Below, piece by piece: positions 36,256 to 60,457 of a stretch of 64,000 bases of DNA; the first letter of the stretch is position 1, and every line of letters begins with the position of its first letter. The translations under genes and the position numbers were made by a program. Source of the stretch: Curvularia clavata. Taxonomy: Eukaryota. The notes beneath the pieces were generated by a model. It was not told the origin of the DNA. It saw only the letters and a program-made list of their open reading frames with translations, and did not search any database. The DNA lies in contig CP089276.1 in the NCBI GenBank assembly GCA_023920165.1, positions 3,348,001 to 3,412,000 on the forward strand, given 5' to 3'.

Positions 36256-36448
36256 CCAGGACGGTGAAACACTAGCCCAAGTTTCTCGATTATGTGCATG
36301 CTCATTCTCAATAGCTATACGATATCTTGCCAAGTCGCCGAGACAGTCTATCCACGTGTCTTCGAAAGCTGGAACTGTCTCATGGAGTAAGGTCATCATC
36401 TGGTAGGCTACTGAATATAGTTTATACAATCTAGGAGGAGAGCATGCT
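36256..36448 (-). pseudogene. fragment of a fungal Est1/SMG-like (EST1 DNA/RNA-binding) gene
   Basis: AYQMMTLLHETVPAFEDTWIDCLGDLARYRIAIE...RETW closely matches the conserved fungal block AY[SQ]MMALLYETVPAFEDTWIECLGDLGRYRMAIE, recalled rather than searched. Only about 60 codons, bounded by stops. Confidence 0.7.
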
Positions 36449-38899
36449 AGAAGGGCGGAACGGCAATATCCAAGCTGCTCCTCTCCCTTTATTATCCTTG
36501 GCCCTGGGATTTGCTCCTCTGTCTACTAGTAGACGTGCCATTTCCACTTGCTCGTACTCAGATGCCCAGTGCAGTGCCGTTCTTCCGTTGTTATCTGTCG
36601 CTTCAATGTCCGCTCCTCTGTCGATTAGTAGCTGCACAATTGGCTTCTCCCCGTCACTAACTGCCCAATGCAGCACCGTTTCCCCTTGCTCTTGCTTCGT
36701 ATTAACATCCAATCCTTTATCTATTAGCAACTGCACCACTGCCTCGTTCCCTCTCGCTACCGCCATATGTAATATTGTATCTCCATGAACACCCTTCTCT
36801 TTAATATTAGCTCCCCTCTCTATTAGAAATCGTACTGCCGCCTCGTTCCCACATCGAACTGCATAGTGTAGTGCCGTCCCCCCATAATTATCTCCCGCAT
36901 TTACATCTGCCCCTTTGTCTAATAGCAGTCGCAATGTTTTCTCGTTCCCATGGATTCCTGCCAGATGCAACGCCGCCGCGCCAGATCTTGACTTTGCCCG
37001 AATGTCCGCTCCGTTGTCTATAAGACAGCCTATTGTTGCCTCGCTGCTCATACACACTGCCACGTGTAATGCTGTTTCTCCATGAACATCCTTCTCGTTT
37101 ACACGCCGGTAGTTTGCAGGCCAGTAGTACGCAATCTTCCACCTCTCATTTGCTAATAAGGCTTCTATCCATGGTATTATTTGCAAACGGCATGCCATGT
37201 GCAGCAGCGGTGGAGGAAAAAATGGTAAATGCTCCGAGCTCGTTGCAAGCACGTAAGATGTCCACCAGTGAGAGCGTAAAGAAGACTCTTTCTGCAAGAA
37301 AAGCCCAAAGGGGTCAAATAGCTCGGTTGCAAGCATGGAACATTTCTTTGCATGCTCAGGCCAATGGATTATTGCATATCGCAGCAGTGGAGACACTCTA
37401 TTAACTAGCTCGTCGTAATAGTAAATAGAGTCATGCTGTAATTTGCTCTTCGCAATACAGCTGAGGCAGTCTTGCGCCAACTTAAGATGCGCGCTTTCTG
37501 CCTCAAAGCGAAACAGCTCTAGAGCATTATTTTGGTCGGGATCCTCACGCATCAAGTAGTCTCGTGCCGACTGGTGGACCAGAGTAACGTACTTCCCTCG
37601 TATCTTCAGTAGAGGCCCACATTGAGCAACAATGTCGCGGGCTGCTTGCGCTATTGTTATTTCAGGTGATGTCGCCCGAACACCGACTGCCGCCGCTAGC
37701 TCCCGCAGTTGTAGAGGAGTAATAGCCATAGTTACCCAGCGCAGGATCTTTTGACTTGTTTCCCTGTGCCTAGCTGGAATCTGCTGCAGCATGCGGCTAT
37801 ATATCGCTGGGACGCCGCTTGGCAAACTCGTAAGAGCTTCCCAAATCTCAGTGCATGTTTGCTTTTGTGAGAGCTCATGCATGGCGAAGCCTACCCACAG
37901 GAATGTCCCTTCAGCGCGGTCAAGTAGAATTTTCTGTGTGGATGTTCGAAACTCATCATTAAAGCCATCGATCCTAGATAGCTCGGCGACGCGAGAAGAT
38001 ACGAATAGCTCGATATCGCTAGCTACCTTCTCGTCGTTGTCGGGGTCTAGTCGTACTCTAGCGCAATGATGTAGACCCGGTATATCTCGACTGACAATGA
38101 CCAGTTTGAACATGCCGTTTGTTGAAGAAAGGTTGTCTCCACTGAGTAGATTGACAATGCGTGGCAGCAACACTTTCAACGTACTCTCTTCACATTCATC
38201 AAGCCCATCGAGCACACAGAAGATGGTACCAAGCTCTTTATCACTCACAAGCTTGCTGAACATAAGCCACAGCGTCTCCAGTGATGACACCGTCTGCTGA
38301 GCCCTCTCAGGAGGCTCAAAATACGACAGTACATGCTTGGCTAGATGCGGCCGCTTGGTGAGAATCTGATGTACTAGTCCGCGTAGGAGAGCTACGCTCG
38401 TATTTCGCTTGTCGTCTTCGGCGCTGCAGAACTGGAACACCAAGTCCGTGTTATGTTCAAGTGCTGCGTGCCTCTCCAGCTCCTCTGTCAGAAAAACAGA
38501 GAGCATCGTCTTGCCTTTGCCAGGACCGCCTGATATCCATAGTAGGCGTGTGATGTCATTATTGCTGCTGTTCAGCCAAGCGCAGTATTCCTCGCTACGA
38601 GTAATCCATTCGCAGGTACCCGCAACTCTTGTGCCTTTTGCGCTGATTACGCTCTCGCGGTCGACATGGGGATCAGTAAGGAAAAGGGCATTGCGACAGG
38701 CGGCTGCCGCTCGTTCTGCCGCTTCTTAAGGGGAATATGTCAGTAGCAAACAGAGCAAGAGGACATCATCTAGTGTACCTTGGGGATTATGTGAAGCAGC
38801 AAAGTAGACATCTCTTGCGGTGCCTACAAACGCTTGTGAATGGTTCTGAGTGGAGACCCCATGGATTTCCTGGTGCCTGGGGGCCTCGATTTCTGGCAT
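36431..38899 (-). CDS. fungal NLR: short N-terminal motif + NACHT NTPase + winged helix + ankyrin repeats
   Basis: Exon 1 38899-38779, intron 38778-38725 (CTGAC branch, in-frame TAA inside), exon 2 38724-36431. GTCEWI, Walker A LWISGGPGKGKTML, Walker B CVLDGLDECE, AEGTFLWV, LVHQSARDYL, and six full 33-aa ankyrin repeats. Confidence 0.9.
36480..37100 (-). repeat. ankyrin repeat array (six 99-bp units plus a partial seventh)
   Basis: 33-aa periodic G-x-T-A-L-H...L-I-D-x-G-A-D motifs. Confidence 0.9.
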
Positions 38900-41294
38900 T
38901 TGGGCCTAGGATACCCGTAAAGTTGTGTCTGCGCTTTCCGTACCTGCCTCGTGCATGCGACGAAACGAATACGCTCGAGTCGCGCATGGAAAGGATGTTG
39001 TAGTGAAAAGGCACGTTTACGCCTCCGCAGCGAGGACAAGGCCGAGCAAGCATGGGGCTGGGCCTTTCAGCTACTCTGTTCTTCGCCCCCACAGCCTTGC
39101 AGCTTCATGCCGTTCCGTGGCGTTCCCGGGCGCTTGTGATGCAGCTCCCACTGGTGGAAGCTGCCCCGCTCATAAACTACCAGCGAGTGAAGAGACGAAG
39201 AAAATGACATTTCTCTTCACACGATACAGGAATTCTTTCGTCTTCAGTGACTTGGACGAAAGGGTGGACGTAAGGATAGGCTATTGGGCTAAACCTAATC
39301 AGGATACAATCCCTACCGAGTCGTCGACCTAAGCGAACGCTACAGGACTCGGGTCTCATTAGGGCTTATTATGTGTCTTGTCGTCAAGATAACAAAAGGT
39401 GGCATCTTTGAACGCTTGTGGGACTACTGGGAAGTATCTTGGTGAGTATTCACCTGCAAATGAAAAACGCGAGAAACGAAGGCCATTTTGCGTTTATGTC
39501 GACCTTGTACAACGGCGATATCAACGACCTTTAATATTCAGGTGGACTATTTTACAAAGTCTCTGAGAGGCAGGTTTACAGCCGCCGACGAATGCTGTTT
39601 CATTTTAATCGCAAATGCACGAGCATTATACAAAAAGGAGCTAGCGACAAAGCTTTCTCGGCACATTTGTCACATAAGTTGGCAACACTTACATTGATGA
39701 TATTTTACGCTCTAAACCGAGCTAAAGCCATGCATGGTGAAGCACGTCTCTTCTTGAGGTAAATAAGTCCCAGCCTGTATGGTTGTGGATATGTAAAAAG
39801 CCGTCAGTGCAAGCGAGCTCTCGTAGCCTACCAGGACTATCTGCAGCCGGCCGTAGATATTGGGCCAATTCTAGTTTCTCCAATAGTATCGGATTCAGCA
39901 CGCTAGGTAATCTTATATGAGGCGCGATGCACTGTGTCCTTGTAGCGTTATCACTGGCGAGTGGAAGGACAAAGAGACATGATGCATGTCAGTCAGAGCA
40001 ATACGTAACATGCAATGAACGGGACTGCCGACTCACGAAAATGCCTCAACTCAGTGCTGCGATCGTCGCTGTCTGTTCGCTTTACTGGAAAGCTCAAGTT
40101 CACCTGCATATCCGCAGCCCGCGCATGTTCCGAAACCAACGGTCGTGTCGCAAAACGATAGGAAGAAGATGATGAAATTCAACTAACGACTCGTATAGCT
40201 GAAGCATTTCTTTTGCCACAATCTTCCTGCCATGGGTATCCCTACTGCAGTACTCGTGGCGTGCAGTGCAGAGAAGCAACAATATCCGTATCGGGATGCA
40301 CAAGTCAAACACCCCAGAAAAGCAAGGCGTGTAAAGAAGCATGTCACTGAATGCAAGGATACGTAACGGTAAACGGTGCGCACGTTCAAGGCCGCCTGGA
40401 TTGCTTCCACAGCGCCAAGTCTCCACCGGCTGCATTCCGAGCCTATCGGTGAAACAAAACCAACTAAAGAACAAGGCAAATCCCCCACGTGGCAACATCC
40501 TCCATTCGGCTGCATTCTCTTTTTCATCGGATGTGCTATAGCCGCCTTGCACAGTGCCTTGTACGCCTCAAAAGCGATCAGAGATCAATTGCCCATCAAA
40601 GCCGGGCTGGGCTGTGATGAATAATCAACACATTAATTATACGCCTACGGCGACAAACTCAAGCCCAATCAAACCCAGTTTTCCTAATCAGTACGTACGT
40701 AGTCGACATCATCGTCGCACATATCACAATTACGTTTCGCGTATCGGCGTAAGGGATGTATGCACATGATAGACTCAACTGGGCACCCTTGTCTTGATCC
40801 CCTGGCATGTTTCGAGTCTCAGTGGCTGCTGAGTCATCTGGTTAACCGTAATCTTGATAACTAAGAGATTAGCAATGATCACGGCTACAATCGGTATTAT
40901 GATATGTCATGCTGGGATCAAGCGGTACAAGTATATGCGACGTTGGAGGATAGTTAATGGCCAGCTTCAGGAAAAGGACAGACCATGGTAGGGTATCAAT
41001 GCAAGTGCAGACGTTAATCAATGACCAAAAAGATAAGATAGGGAATACTAATACGCTGTCATGACATCAGTGGTAACAAATGAGATGACTGTAGCTCCAC
41101 AAACGAATCGAGATCACATCCCATCAAGGCCTGAACAATCTCGTTCCCTATACCATTTTCCTGAACACCTTTTTTTTTCGAAAAACCAGCCACCTCAATA
41201 TACTACAGCACCGGCAACACATACTCGGCGCCTCAGCTTCTACTATCACATGCACCCACTTCCACCGTAAAACCACATCAAGACAACGCCACGT

Positions 41295-57804: not shown

Positions 57805-59713
57805 TCATGTGAACTTGAGAAGTTGTGGCTGTGGAAGAAAAGTCATGCTTACATCGCTCATCAGACCGTCCAAGTAGCAGTCCCCTAGAAGTCTCCACGA
57901 ATCTCCGGCTCGCCTAATGACAAACGGCACCGCGCATCCTGCGAGGAAGCATATCTCATCGCCTGGCTTTGCAGCCTGCGGTATCCAGGCCAGCTTGCCT
58001 GTTTCTGTGACGCAAAACTTCCGACCTTGTGAAAGCTCAGCAAAGCGGCTCTCATACTCGAAATAGCGACGGTTGGAACTTTCAGAGCCCTCAAAAACAG
58101 CTCTGTGTCTGTCATCTTGTTGTGTTGTCTGTAGCATCCTCTTTCGTAGTGCTTGGAATCCTCCGATATACTCTGCAATTGTTGCATCGTTTTGTCTTGA
58201 CAAGGCGCCACATACCATCGTGCGGCAGAATGCCGCCAGCAATCGATGCCTGCGACATGCTGCATTCTTTGATCGGGCTAATACATAGCACATGTACTGC
58301 CAATTCAACATACCTTCGCCCCATTTATGCGAGACCTGCAGAGGGTTTCGTTCTTCTCGTCGGACGTTTGACAGTACATCTTCCATATAGGGCATAGAAT
58401 CAACAATGACCGAGGGTTTGTCGACGAAGACTCCAGAGATGGACATTGTCTACATGGTTAGATGTTTCAAATCATGAAAAGCTGAGCCCTAGACATACCC
58501 TATTCTCGATAATGGCATCTTGGTACGGATGATCAAAGAAGGATATTCCCAGATAATAGTCCGTTAAAGGAGCGAACCTGATGCCATTTGGTCTCCAATC
58601 TGGGACCCAGCTTGGCAGCTGTGATTCACTCAGCGAGTAGCACTTGCAAGCTAGGAACCTGCTCGATCGATATGTCTTATTTCCCAACGAAATGCGACTT
58701 GGCTGACTGGAAACCTTCGAATGCACAGGTTGTTCAAGTGCTATTGGATGAGTAAGTGCTATTTTCGCGACTTCAGTGTAGACTTCCACTATATCCTTGC
58801 TGTAATCGATCAAATCCATTGGGAGCATGGTTTGAAGAGACAATAATGCGAAAACCCGATCTCTTTCGTCTGTTGCCTCCAGCAAATGACTTCGCTTCCA
58901 TATGTCGTCTATGTCAATGTCTTCCTTTCTAACAAAATATTCATTGTCTTGGGTAATACAAAGATGCAATGGTCTTTGACGAAGCGTTGCTGCTGATAAT
59001 CCACTTTCAGTCTGTATTGCAAAGACATTTTGGATTTCAACGCAAACATTTGTAGCAATAGCGCAATGCATGAGGACTTTTGTCGGTATTTCCACGGCTC
59101 CAGACATGAAAACGGACTCCTTCGCGCTCGAAAACTCTTGCGCAATCCAGACACGTCCAAACCAGGGGCGAATGAGCAAGGACGCCCATCCAACCCATCC
59201 TGTGTCAAAATAAGGCATACCTAATTCCCTCAAACTCTTATCTCGTAACTCTCCCGTGAATAAGAGCTCTGGATGTTTCTGGAAGAAGGTGTTCATCAAA
59301 CGAGCGCCATCTTTGTCGAAATCTTGCTCCTCGCCAAGCCAGAATATCACCTTAGCAGCTCTACTAAATATACCTCGCATCATGGCCACTTGTGCACTCT
59401 TCTCTTCGTCATCCTGCTGATTGATACAAAGCGCATCCACCCAGAGTAGGCAGTCGAATCCCTGTTGTAACAGCTGGGATAACGCGCTGTGTAGATTGGG
59501 TGTGATTGATACTTGATGTCCGTTGCAAGAGATCCAGCGTTGTGGTGTGGGACTGCCCCATACGTAAGACAACGCATTGAATTTGATTGCTGAACTGAGG
59601 CGGAAGGATTTTAATATCACTTCAATGCCGTTCTCATCGTTCCTAGGTTTGAGGCGGATTAGGCGGATAGTATCTTGGTGCTGAAGTGGGGCGTAAAGCG
59701 GCGTGGAAGTCAT
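57805..59713 (-). CDS. HET-domain (heterokaryon incompatibility, HET-6-like) protein, about 619 aa
   Basis: IRLIRL, ALSYVWG, LWVDALCINQ, EKSAQVAMM, WFGRVWIAQE, DRVFALL, LPSWVPDW and GDEICFLAGCAVPFVIR...LLGDCY. Intron 58498-58450. Confidence 0.93.
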
Positions 59714-60457
59714 GACTGAGACGTTGTATGCCGAATGCTGCGCCTGATTGTCATACCATAATACTCAGGCAATCAGACGGATTTGGAACATTTGAGTTTC
59801 TTCCAAAACACTATAGAATAGTGAAAGTTGTAATAAAAATGCAATGGCCTCTAGATTTGAATACTGGCTGGTTAATAGCCCCTTTATCTGCGCATCTGGC
59901 TCGGCTCAGCCTTGCTGGAGGAGTAGGGGTACATGGACTGATGCCTTAGCCTGAGAACAAATAAGTGAGAATACGGTCCGCAGGTGGGGTCATCGTTGTT
60001 GCATACGTAGGCTAAGTGCACGACGACAAGGCACAGTAAGGAGAATATGTTGATGGTTGCATGGTGAGTGTCAGCTACCCCAAGTACTGATCTATACCAA
60101 GGCGCTATCCCAAACGAGGGCATAGTCGTCAGGGATACAGTAGTTGGCGTGCGCCTTCTCTGTTCATCTCCGCAGCCTCGTCATATCATTACACTTTGCA
60201 CAATAAAGAACGAATGAATCATAAGATTGGCAGGCTAATACCTTTTTATTTTCGTAATCTAGCATCTCCGCTAGCAGTACATACAGCTAAGAATATAAAC
60301 TTATTTCCCCCTCCACTGACGACCATTACCTTCCTTAAGCCACTATTTACATGCTAAAAGAGTGACAAAGTTGTGACCAGCACTTTGCAACAAGTCCCTC
60401 CAACATCAATTCTGATATGTCATTACAATTTGTGACGTGAGCTCCTTGGTCAACACT

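What the first reader, a model, noticed from the sequence alone, without database searches (positions are those of the whole stretch)
38779..38899. Hidden first exon gives the NLR an N-terminal HET-s/HRAM-like amyloid signalling motif
Seen: a 40-codon exon below the ORF-track cutoff, MPEIEAPRHQEIHGVSTQNHSQAFVGTARDVYFAASHNPQ, splices in frame to the NACHT. An in-frame TAG lies just upstream, so there is no folded effector domain. Known (recalled): HET-s PFD repeats (NSAKDIRTEERARVQLG, NSVETVVGKGESRVLIG) and the NWD2 R0 motif span 17 residues from N to G, with inward-facing residues at positions 3, 6, 8, 12, 14 and 16. QEIHGVSTQNHSQAFVG has I3, V6, T8, S12, A14, V16 and G17 in that register. Inference: this NLR signals by templating an amyloid fold onto a partner, with a variant motif (Q/T in place of the Asn ladders).
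Basis: partly seen in the sequence, partly recalled or inferred. Interest (0 to 1): 0.75.

Follow-up and report, generated by a model that had tools for sequence, protein, structure and literature searches.

The report
Orphaned fungal receptor with amyloid motif
A fungal immune receptor gene starts with a short exon carrying an already described amyloid signalling motif; its usual neighbouring cell-death partner gene seems to have decayed, so it probably signals to a matching partner encoded elsewhere in the genome.

Summary
A 121-nt exon (38899-38779) joins a NACHT-ankyrin NLR over a 54-nt GT-AG intron; one contig from a close relative skips exactly that intron (RNA status only guessed). The peptide is not a new variant. 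It is an r0 motif of the HRAM2 class (Q at position 3), 16/21 identical to r0 motifs published in 2015. A profile built only from effector repeats scores it 22.6 bits, next best -1.6, among 66,155 window 21-mers. A weak, correctly placed and oriented trace of that gene's repeat region remains at 39412-39525. An intact HeLo-like protein on another contig has two repeats matching the motif at 8 of 8 defined positions; that signature occurs only these three times in the genome. Best reading: an orphaned receptor signalling in trans. Amyloid formation, seeding and the partner are inferred, not shown. The scan noted the same motif class before on another genome.

The parts
38779..38899 (-). Exon 1 of the NLR (40 codons + 1 nt)
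   Evidence: same exon and intron position in 6 of 6 close paralogues and in database homologues
38816..38878 (-). HRAM2-type r0 amyloid signalling motif, 21 residues (residues 8-28): Q3, I5, V8, T10, S14, A16, V18, G19 in the published numbering
   Evidence: 16/21 identical to two published r0 motifs (counted by eye)
38725..38778 (-). Phase-1 intron, 54 nt, GT...CTGAC...AG
   Evidence: skipped exactly by one contig of run X2
36431..38724 (-). Exon 2: NACHT domain (about 38620-38087), winged-helix region, six ankyrin repeats (about 37100-36490), stop
   Evidence: Pfam; 99-nt repeat spacing; frame kept in the X2 contig, with part of the ankyrin region diverged
38906..38908 (-). In-frame TAG two codons before the ATG
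38972..39104 (.). Stretch homologous to the spacer between NLR and divergent HeLo-like gene in intact pairs (probable shared promoter)
   Evidence: nhmmer 15.8 bits, E 6.6e-6 in the window, E 5.4e-5 in 523 kb
39412..39525 (+). Probable decayed remnant of the HeLo-like partner gene (end of repeat 1, loop, repeat 2); no trace found of the HeLo-like domain itself
   Evidence: nhmmer 9.9, 5.1 and 6.0 bits with three profiles; protein level only E 0.19, rank 4 of 1827 segments; about 75% likely real

Best explanation
The gene encodes an HRAM2-type amyloid-signalling NLR. Ligand sensing by the ankyrin repeats drives NACHT oligomerisation. [quoted passage not shown] The locus was once a divergent NLR/effector pair. 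The effector has decayed, and the receptor now most likely signals in trans to the intact HeLo-like protein at G000:C6:887.6-888.5k. Shown: exon structure, motif class and conservation, no intact neighbour, existence and sequence match of the C6 protein. Inferred: amyloid folding, ligand-driven activation, seeding of the C6 protein, cell death (by analogy with NWD2/HET-S and FNT1/HELLF), and that the upstream trace is a remnant. Motif identity alone I put at about 0.95; the confidence given is for the whole statement.
For: The motif scores 22.6 bits on a profile from 44 repeats of 22 database effectors, next best -1.6. 12 of 34 homologues with an N-terminal extension exceed the background maximum, and 4 are 15/17 identical. 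Published r0 motifs 16/21 identical sit beside effectors of the C6 type. 5 of 5 metagenome relatives with an HRAM-type first exon and at least 1.7 kb upstream have a divergent HeLo-like gene; in L107 and L108 the r0 is 15/17 identical and the effector is of the C6 type. The window r0 equals both C6 repeats at 8 of 8 defined positions, against 5 of 8 for the second effector on C8. Of 15 genome-wide matches to the six-position DNA pattern, only the window r0 and the two C6 repeats also have Q3 and I5. The r0 has stayed 15/17 identical to other genera, while the remnant matches only 10 of 36 consensus residues in a region where intact effectors are 57-75% alike. That suggests selection on r0 after the neighbour was lost. 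The AlphaFold model of the C6 C-terminus has only two matches at Z>=2 among 48,161 chains: HELLF (6EKA, Z 4.5, rmsd 5.1, 52 aligned) and HET-s (2KJ3, Z 4.2, rmsd 6.4, 58 aligned).
Against: No experiment on this or, in my searches, any HRAM2 motif. The splice evidence is one contig of a relative whose RNA status is guessed. The remnant is weak: E 0.11 in 523 kb with the profile built from other genomes only, where a chance hit scored 5.1 against its 6.0 bits; E 0.19 as protein; the full-length effector profile and tblastn found nothing. The eight-position signature was framed after I had seen the C6 repeats. Core identity is not a proven predictor of pairing: the NLR that is adjacent to the C6 effector matches it at only 5 of 8, and a published pair shows the same mismatch. 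The window peptide has residues at positions 4 and 6 seen in 0 of 12 homologues. The structural Z-scores are below the level the tool calls reliable, and Foldseek gave no match at E<=0.001.
Confidence: 0.62

Rival explanations
1. The motif is a true HRAM2 r0 but now a relic: the receptor lost its partner and signals to nothing, on its way to the fate of two pseudogenised paralogues.
For: 2 of 6 close paralogues carry in-frame stops and degraded motifs, and have no effector beside them. Window-specific changes at positions 4, 6 and 20.
Against: The frame is intact here and in the X2 relative. All eight defined positions are kept while the neighbouring effector trace is heavily decayed.
Confidence: 0.17
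2. HRAM2 signalling here is promiscuous: the r0 seeds the C8 HeLo-like protein as well as, or instead of, the C6 one.
For: Both effectors are Q3-type double repeats. The window r0 scores 17.4 bits on the defined positions of the C8-type profile, above the background maximum of 7.8. Adjacent pairs in this genome match only 5 of 8 and 3 of 8.
Against: It scores 30.6 against 17.4 (defined positions) and 22.6 against 4.6 (all positions) in favour of the C6 type. Near-identical r0 motifs elsewhere sit beside C6-type effectors. The C8-type profile rests on only 12 repeats.
Confidence: 0.1
3. The r0 serves mainly as a homotypic scaffold that stabilises the NLR oligomer, or couples this NLR to other r0-bearing NLRs, with no direct effector templating.
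For: Four intact NLRs with related r0 motifs against two effectors in this genome. PMC9815663 has a section heading proposing a scaffold role for internal motifs (outline only).
Against: The motif mirrors the effector repeats, and close relatives keep the gene pair.
Confidence: 0.07
4. The exon model is wrong: exon 1 is not used, or the TAG before the ATG is a splice acceptor for a longer upstream effector exon.
For: The TAG could serve as a YAG acceptor. No run on record as RNA confirms the junction in this strain. Same-clade NACHTs do occur with PNP_UDP or SesA N-termini.
Against: The X2 contig skips only the 54-nt intron and is continuous over 38779-39400. Annotated homologues of several genera start with the same exon. 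No Pfam or effector-profile match lies upstream.
Confidence: 0.04

Closest known systems
HRAM2 r0 motifs of Pleosporales NLRs paired with HeLo-like effectors (Daskalov, Dyrka, Saupe 2015, PMC4518210; supplement rows Cocca1_9269, Cocsa1_181401, Wesor1_504224, Coclu2_33136)
   Same: Single N-terminal 21-residue motif with Q3, I5, V8, T10, A16, V18, G19; 16/21 identical to two published r0 motifs; the effectors in those rows are close relatives of the C6 protein.
   Different: Those r0 motifs were taken from NLR genes adjacent to their effector. Here the adjacent effector is absent or decayed.
NWD2/HET-S (HRAM1) and FNT1/HELLF (HRAM5) of Podospora anserina
   Same: NLR r0 plus effector r1/r2 layout, hydrophobic pattern and arch glycine; the C6 repeat model resembles their solved fibrils weakly but uniquely.
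   Different: Q rather than N at position 3, no Q at 16; ankyrin sensor; unlinked partner. These systems are shown experimentally, HRAM2 only modelled.
NLR12 (HRAM3-like)/PNP_UDP systems with non-adjacent genes (Wojciechowski et al. 2022, PMC9815663)
   Same: More receptors than effectors in a genome and signalling proposed between unlinked genes.
   Different: Different motif class and an enzymatic single-motif effector. Here a double-repeat HeLo-like effector, with a trace of the lost neighbour.

Membership tests
Fungal NLR | NACHT/NB-ARC domain followed by superstructure-forming repeats | tested here: met
   PF24883 E 5e-37, ankyrin PF00023 six stretches; P-loop and Walker B visible
HRAM r0 motif | Single copy at the very N-terminus of an NLR lacking a folded effector domain | tested here: met
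   Residues 8-28 of 804; no Pfam match for exon 1 at E<=1
HRAM r0 motif | Hydrophobic residues at 5, 8, 10 (or T), 16, 18 and G at 19 | tested here: met
   I5, V8, T10, A16, V18, G19 (definition). The R/K preference at 15 seen in effector repeats is absent (Q15), as in the published r0 rows.
HRAM r0 motif | Resembles the r1/r2 repeats of a HeLo or HeLo-like protein | tested here: met
   22.6 bits on an effector-only profile, next best -1.6 of 66,155; 8 of 8 defined positions equal to both C6 repeats
HRAM2 | Q at position 3, no Q at 16 or 18 | tested here: met
   Q3, A16, V18. The supplement rows carry no class label; the class follows from the text rule and Table 1. The paper's own clustering was not rerun.
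HRAM r0 motif | Forms a beta-solenoid amyloid and seeds its effector | not testable with these tools
   Needs experiment. The model of exon 1 alone was uninformative; the partner's model is suggestive only.
Clustered NLR/HeLo-like gene pair (nwd2/het-S layout) | Intact effector gene immediately adjacent | tested here: not met
   No effector by Pfam, tblastn or effector profile in the window; only a probable remnant. Not filed as an intact pair. The 2015 paper calls adjacency common, not systematic (98 of 155).
HRAM1 (canonical HET-s) | N at position 3 | tested here: not met
   Q3
HRAM3 | H at position 3 | tested here: not met
   Q3; H is at position 2
HRAM4 / HRAM5 | Q at position 18 / 16 | tested here: not met
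   V18, A16
PP and PUASM motifs | NxGxQxGxN; FxGxGxQxxGxGxF | tested here: not met
   Patterns compared by eye with the peptide
sigma motif | Match to the sigma profile | tested here: inconclusive
   No Pfam family matched exon 1 at E<=1; the authors' own motif profiles are in a file type that could not be read

The most novel reading that the evidence does not exclude
A caught-in-the-act rewiring of amyloid signalling. An HRAM2 receptor lost its linked HeLo-like effector, whose decayed tail still lies behind the shared promoter. Its motif was kept by selection because it seeds an unlinked effector, which it matches better than that effector's own linked receptor. Several dispersed receptors would then converge on one or two executioners, with natural core variants (T10/A16/V18 against A10/V16/A18) that test the seeding rules inside one HRAM class.
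Probability: 0.5. Interest if true: 0.5.

Novelty: new member of a known kind. Interest (0 to 1): 0.33.

Why it matters
The locus is still useful. Signalling between unlinked NLRs and effectors has been proposed from genome counts (PMC9815663). I found no experimental work on HRAM2 in the library. This genome gives a small, defined set for a seeding matrix: four intact receptors, two HRAM2 effectors, and HRAM3- and PP-type effectors as controls. It also shows how gene calls miss such exons: 86 of 120 homologues lacked a usable N-terminus.

Tried and rejected
No RNA holder listed: none of the 12 runs is on record as RNA. Runs X1, X4 and X12 do not cover the junction. The AlphaFold model of exon 1 alone gave no secondary structure, pTM 0.30. 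Foldseek found no match at E<=0.001 for the C6 repeat model; 2RNM ranked first at E 3.5. phmmer against PDB sequences found nothing. tblastn and the full-length effector profile found no effector trace in the window; only DNA profiles and a C-terminal protein profile did. No transposon-like terminal repeats and no Rfam match around the gene. Other effectors with this motif: in 115 own-genome loci (445,335 21-mers, including HeLo, HeLo-like, SesA and PNP_UDP hits) the only repeats at effector C-termini were those on C6 and C8; three loci picked by the pattern search and one other 21-mer also scored 12-22 bits but lack I5 or Q3 and are treated as chance. The family searches score only their best candidates, so these are lower bounds. 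The first profile picked repeats with a pattern and was partly circular; redid it from alignment columns. The tree (34 rows, chosen by me for having informative N-termini) leaves the window's closest sister unresolved, so I draw no order of duplications from it. The HET-domain gene at 58475-59764 scored nothing on the profile. A long uORF-rich leader was considered (14 ATGs in the 800 nt upstream, about the chance number) and not supported: contigs give no strand or start. The motif profiles and FASTA files of PMC9815663 could not be read and may already contain close homologues of this NLR.

Full report
1. Observation. The minus strand has an ATG at 38899, a 121-nt exon, a 54-nt intron (38778-38725; GT, CTGAC branch, AG) and a second exon to the stop at 36431. 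Together they give an open 804-aa frame. An in-frame TAG sits two codons before the ATG, and the unspliced frame stops after 57 aa. Exon 2 encodes a NACHT-type domain and six ankyrin stretches; exon 1 has no Pfam match. The homologues are mostly Pleosporales proteins of 50-67% identity. I laid 4 of 12 listed runs on the gene. One contig of run X2, from a close relative, skips exactly 38725-38778 with intron-type ends and is otherwise continuous from 38779 to 39400. It is a single contig, the RNA label is a guess, and genomic intron loss is not excluded. The intron lies at the same place and phase in all six close paralogues of this genome.

2. Is the motif more than chance? A family profile settles it. 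I aligned 22 database homologues of a HeLo-like protein and built a matrix from their 44 C-terminal repeats, with no NLR sequence in it. The exon-1 21-mer scores 22.6 bits; the next best of 66,155 window 21-mers scores -1.6. Of 120 NLR homologues listed (of 727 found), 34 lacked my P-loop anchor and 52 had fewer than 25 residues before the NACHT; these 86 were set aside. Of the remaining 34, 12 score above the background maximum (7.8 bits in 31,242 21-mers), and four are 15/17 identical to the window motif. The other 22 carry, by eye, more diverged motifs, PP-like motifs, PNP_UDP or SesA domains, or misread introns. In the 12, positions not used for selection are also conserved (Q15 11/12, S9 10/12, F17 9/12), while the window's residues at positions 4 and 6 occur in none. 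Against the C6 paralogue the differences fall 8/5/12 on codon positions 1/2/3 over 27 codons, a mild coding signature.

3. What it is. Daskalov, Dyrka and Saupe 2015 (PMC4518210; whole main text read; supplement file 2 part 1 of 5 and matched rows) define HRAMs by hydrophobic residues at 5, 8, 10, 16, 18 and G19. They separate classes by position 3 (N, Q, H for HRAM1, 2, 3) and by Q at 18 or 16 (HRAM4, 5). The window motif has Q3, I5, V8, T10, A16, V18, G19: HRAM2. Two r0 motifs in their table are 16/21 identical to it (counted by eye), and the effectors in those rows closely resemble the C6 protein below. So the 'variant with Q' is a class described in 2015.

4. Surroundings. No effector gene lies in the window: Pfam on 36 long frames, tblastn with both HeLo-like proteins of this genome, and a full-length effector profile found none. 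The neighbours are a nickel transporter and a CAF1-family nuclease. Relatives differ. I examined the 13 best of 80 metagenome loci. Five have an HRAM-type first exon (two of them judged by eye) and at least 1.7 kb upstream, and all five have a divergent HeLo-like gene 0.4-0.7 kb away; the other eight have other N-termini or too little upstream DNA. An Amniculicola effector and NLR have consecutive accessions. DNA profiles from such pairs match the window at 38972-39104 (spacer, 15.8 bits) and at 39412-39525 on the plus strand, at the part coding for the end of repeat 1 through repeat 2 (9.9, 5.1 and 6.0 bits with three profiles). In 523 kb of own-genome DNA this was the best match outside real HeLo-type genes for all three profiles, though a chance hit came close in one (5.1 against 6.0). 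The best of 200 shuffles of the region scored 0.7 against 5.1. As protein it aligns without gaps over 36 residues but ranks only fourth of 1827 segments (E 0.19). Position and orientation are those expected, so I rate a remnant at about 75%.

5. Candidate partner. The genome has two HeLo-like genes with Q3-type double repeats, on C6 (295 aa) and C8 (298 aa), each next to a paralogous NLR. The window motif (QEIHGVSTQNHSQAFVG) equals both C6 repeats (QDISNVITSADSKAFVG, QRISNVRTEGGSTAHVG) at all eight defined positions, and the C8 repeats at five. A genome-wide scan for six of the positions gave 15 matches (reversed control 29); only the window motif and the two C6 repeats also have Q3 and I5. 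I framed this signature after seeing the repeats. The C6 effector's own neighbour matches it at only 5 of 8, and the C8 neighbour matches its effector at 3 of 8. That makes the window's fit notable, but it also shows that linked pairs tolerate mismatch, so identity does not prove pairing. A third intact paralogue (C6:2171k, 6 of 8) and two paralogues with stops have no effector within their 20-kb neighbourhoods. An AlphaFold model of the C6 C-terminus (pLDDT 76.5, two strand-rich rungs) matches only HELLF and HET-s fibrils among 48,161 chains, at low Z (4.5 and 4.2); Foldseek gave nothing significant.

6. Mechanism. By analogy with NWD2/HET-S and FNT1/HELLF (PMC4518210; PMC7889193 and PMC5485727, passages; bioRxiv 10.1101/2020.07.06.188508, passages), activation clusters the r0 motifs into a beta-solenoid seed. 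The seed converts the r1/r2 region of a HeLo-like protein and triggers cell death. Here the target must be unlinked, most likely the C6 protein. The main argument that the motif is still in use is the contrast in decay: r0 is 15/17 identical across genera, while the neighbour's trace keeps 10 of 36 consensus residues in a region 57-75% conserved among intact effectors. Rivals are a relic motif (0.17), signalling to C8 (0.10), a scaffold role (0.07) and a wrong exon model (0.04).

7. Novelty. The motif class and near-identical instances are published. Signalling between unlinked genes was proposed for another HRAM class (PMC9815663; sections 6, 19, 24, 45, 61 and two supplementary tables read). 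Searches for HRAM2 returned four relevant papers; in what I read of them HRAM2 appears only as a sequence class or a homology model. A search for unlinked or pseudogenised partners (listing only) showed no report of a decayed HeLo-like neighbour. PMC12261475 (passages) added nothing specific. The library lacks most subscription papers, and some supplements could not be read. Verdict: a real feature, new member of a known kind, with a testable twist. Interest 0.33.

Noticed in passing
L098:1007-1896 (+) and L098:281-655 (-) (G000:C6:1293.9-1295.5k): A close paralogue of the C6 HeLo-like effector (43% over 106 residues of exon 2) ends in a single PP-like motif instead of the HRAM2 repeats, and faces an NTPase gene that starts with the matching PP-like motif: the same effector scaffold with a swapped signalling module.
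   Followed up: partly
L036, L037, L033, L034, L186: Two HeLo proteins end in H3-type (HRAM3-like) double repeats, two in PP-like motifs, and one SesA protein in an N/G-rich tail; the genome seems to run several parallel amyloid channels.
   Followed up: no
window:36755-37032: In the X2 relative this part of the ankyrin region is diverged at equal length while the flanks are about 90% alike, as expected of a diversifying sensor.
   Followed up: no
window:38900-39700: 14 upstream ATGs on the NLR strand, two opening frames that overlap exon 1 out of frame and one 16-codon frame ending at the TAG before the start. The X2 contig runs about 190 nt beyond 39400, near the end of the remnant, which could reflect divergent transcription.
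   Followed up: partly
L044:2807-2895: A branch-site and acceptor-like stretch lies just before the C8 NLR's start, downstream of the tandem effector gene; a 5' intron or an effector-NLR fusion transcript is possible. That NLR's r0 is degenerate, 3 of 8.
   Followed up: no
P0047, P0054, P0024 in the tree: Within the same well-supported NACHT clade the first exon is replaced by a different short peptide or by a PNP_UDP domain, pointing to N-terminal module exchange at the conserved intron.
   Followed up: partly
window:58475-59764 (-); window:24084-26445 (+): A HET-domain gene, and a gene of no clear family with a helical N-terminal part and one weak ankyrin match.
   Followed up: no
window:34890-35335 (-): A small, apparently intron-containing gene for a cysteine-containing peptide with a hydrophobic start lies 1.1 kb downstream of the NLR (seen by eye).
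   Followed up: no
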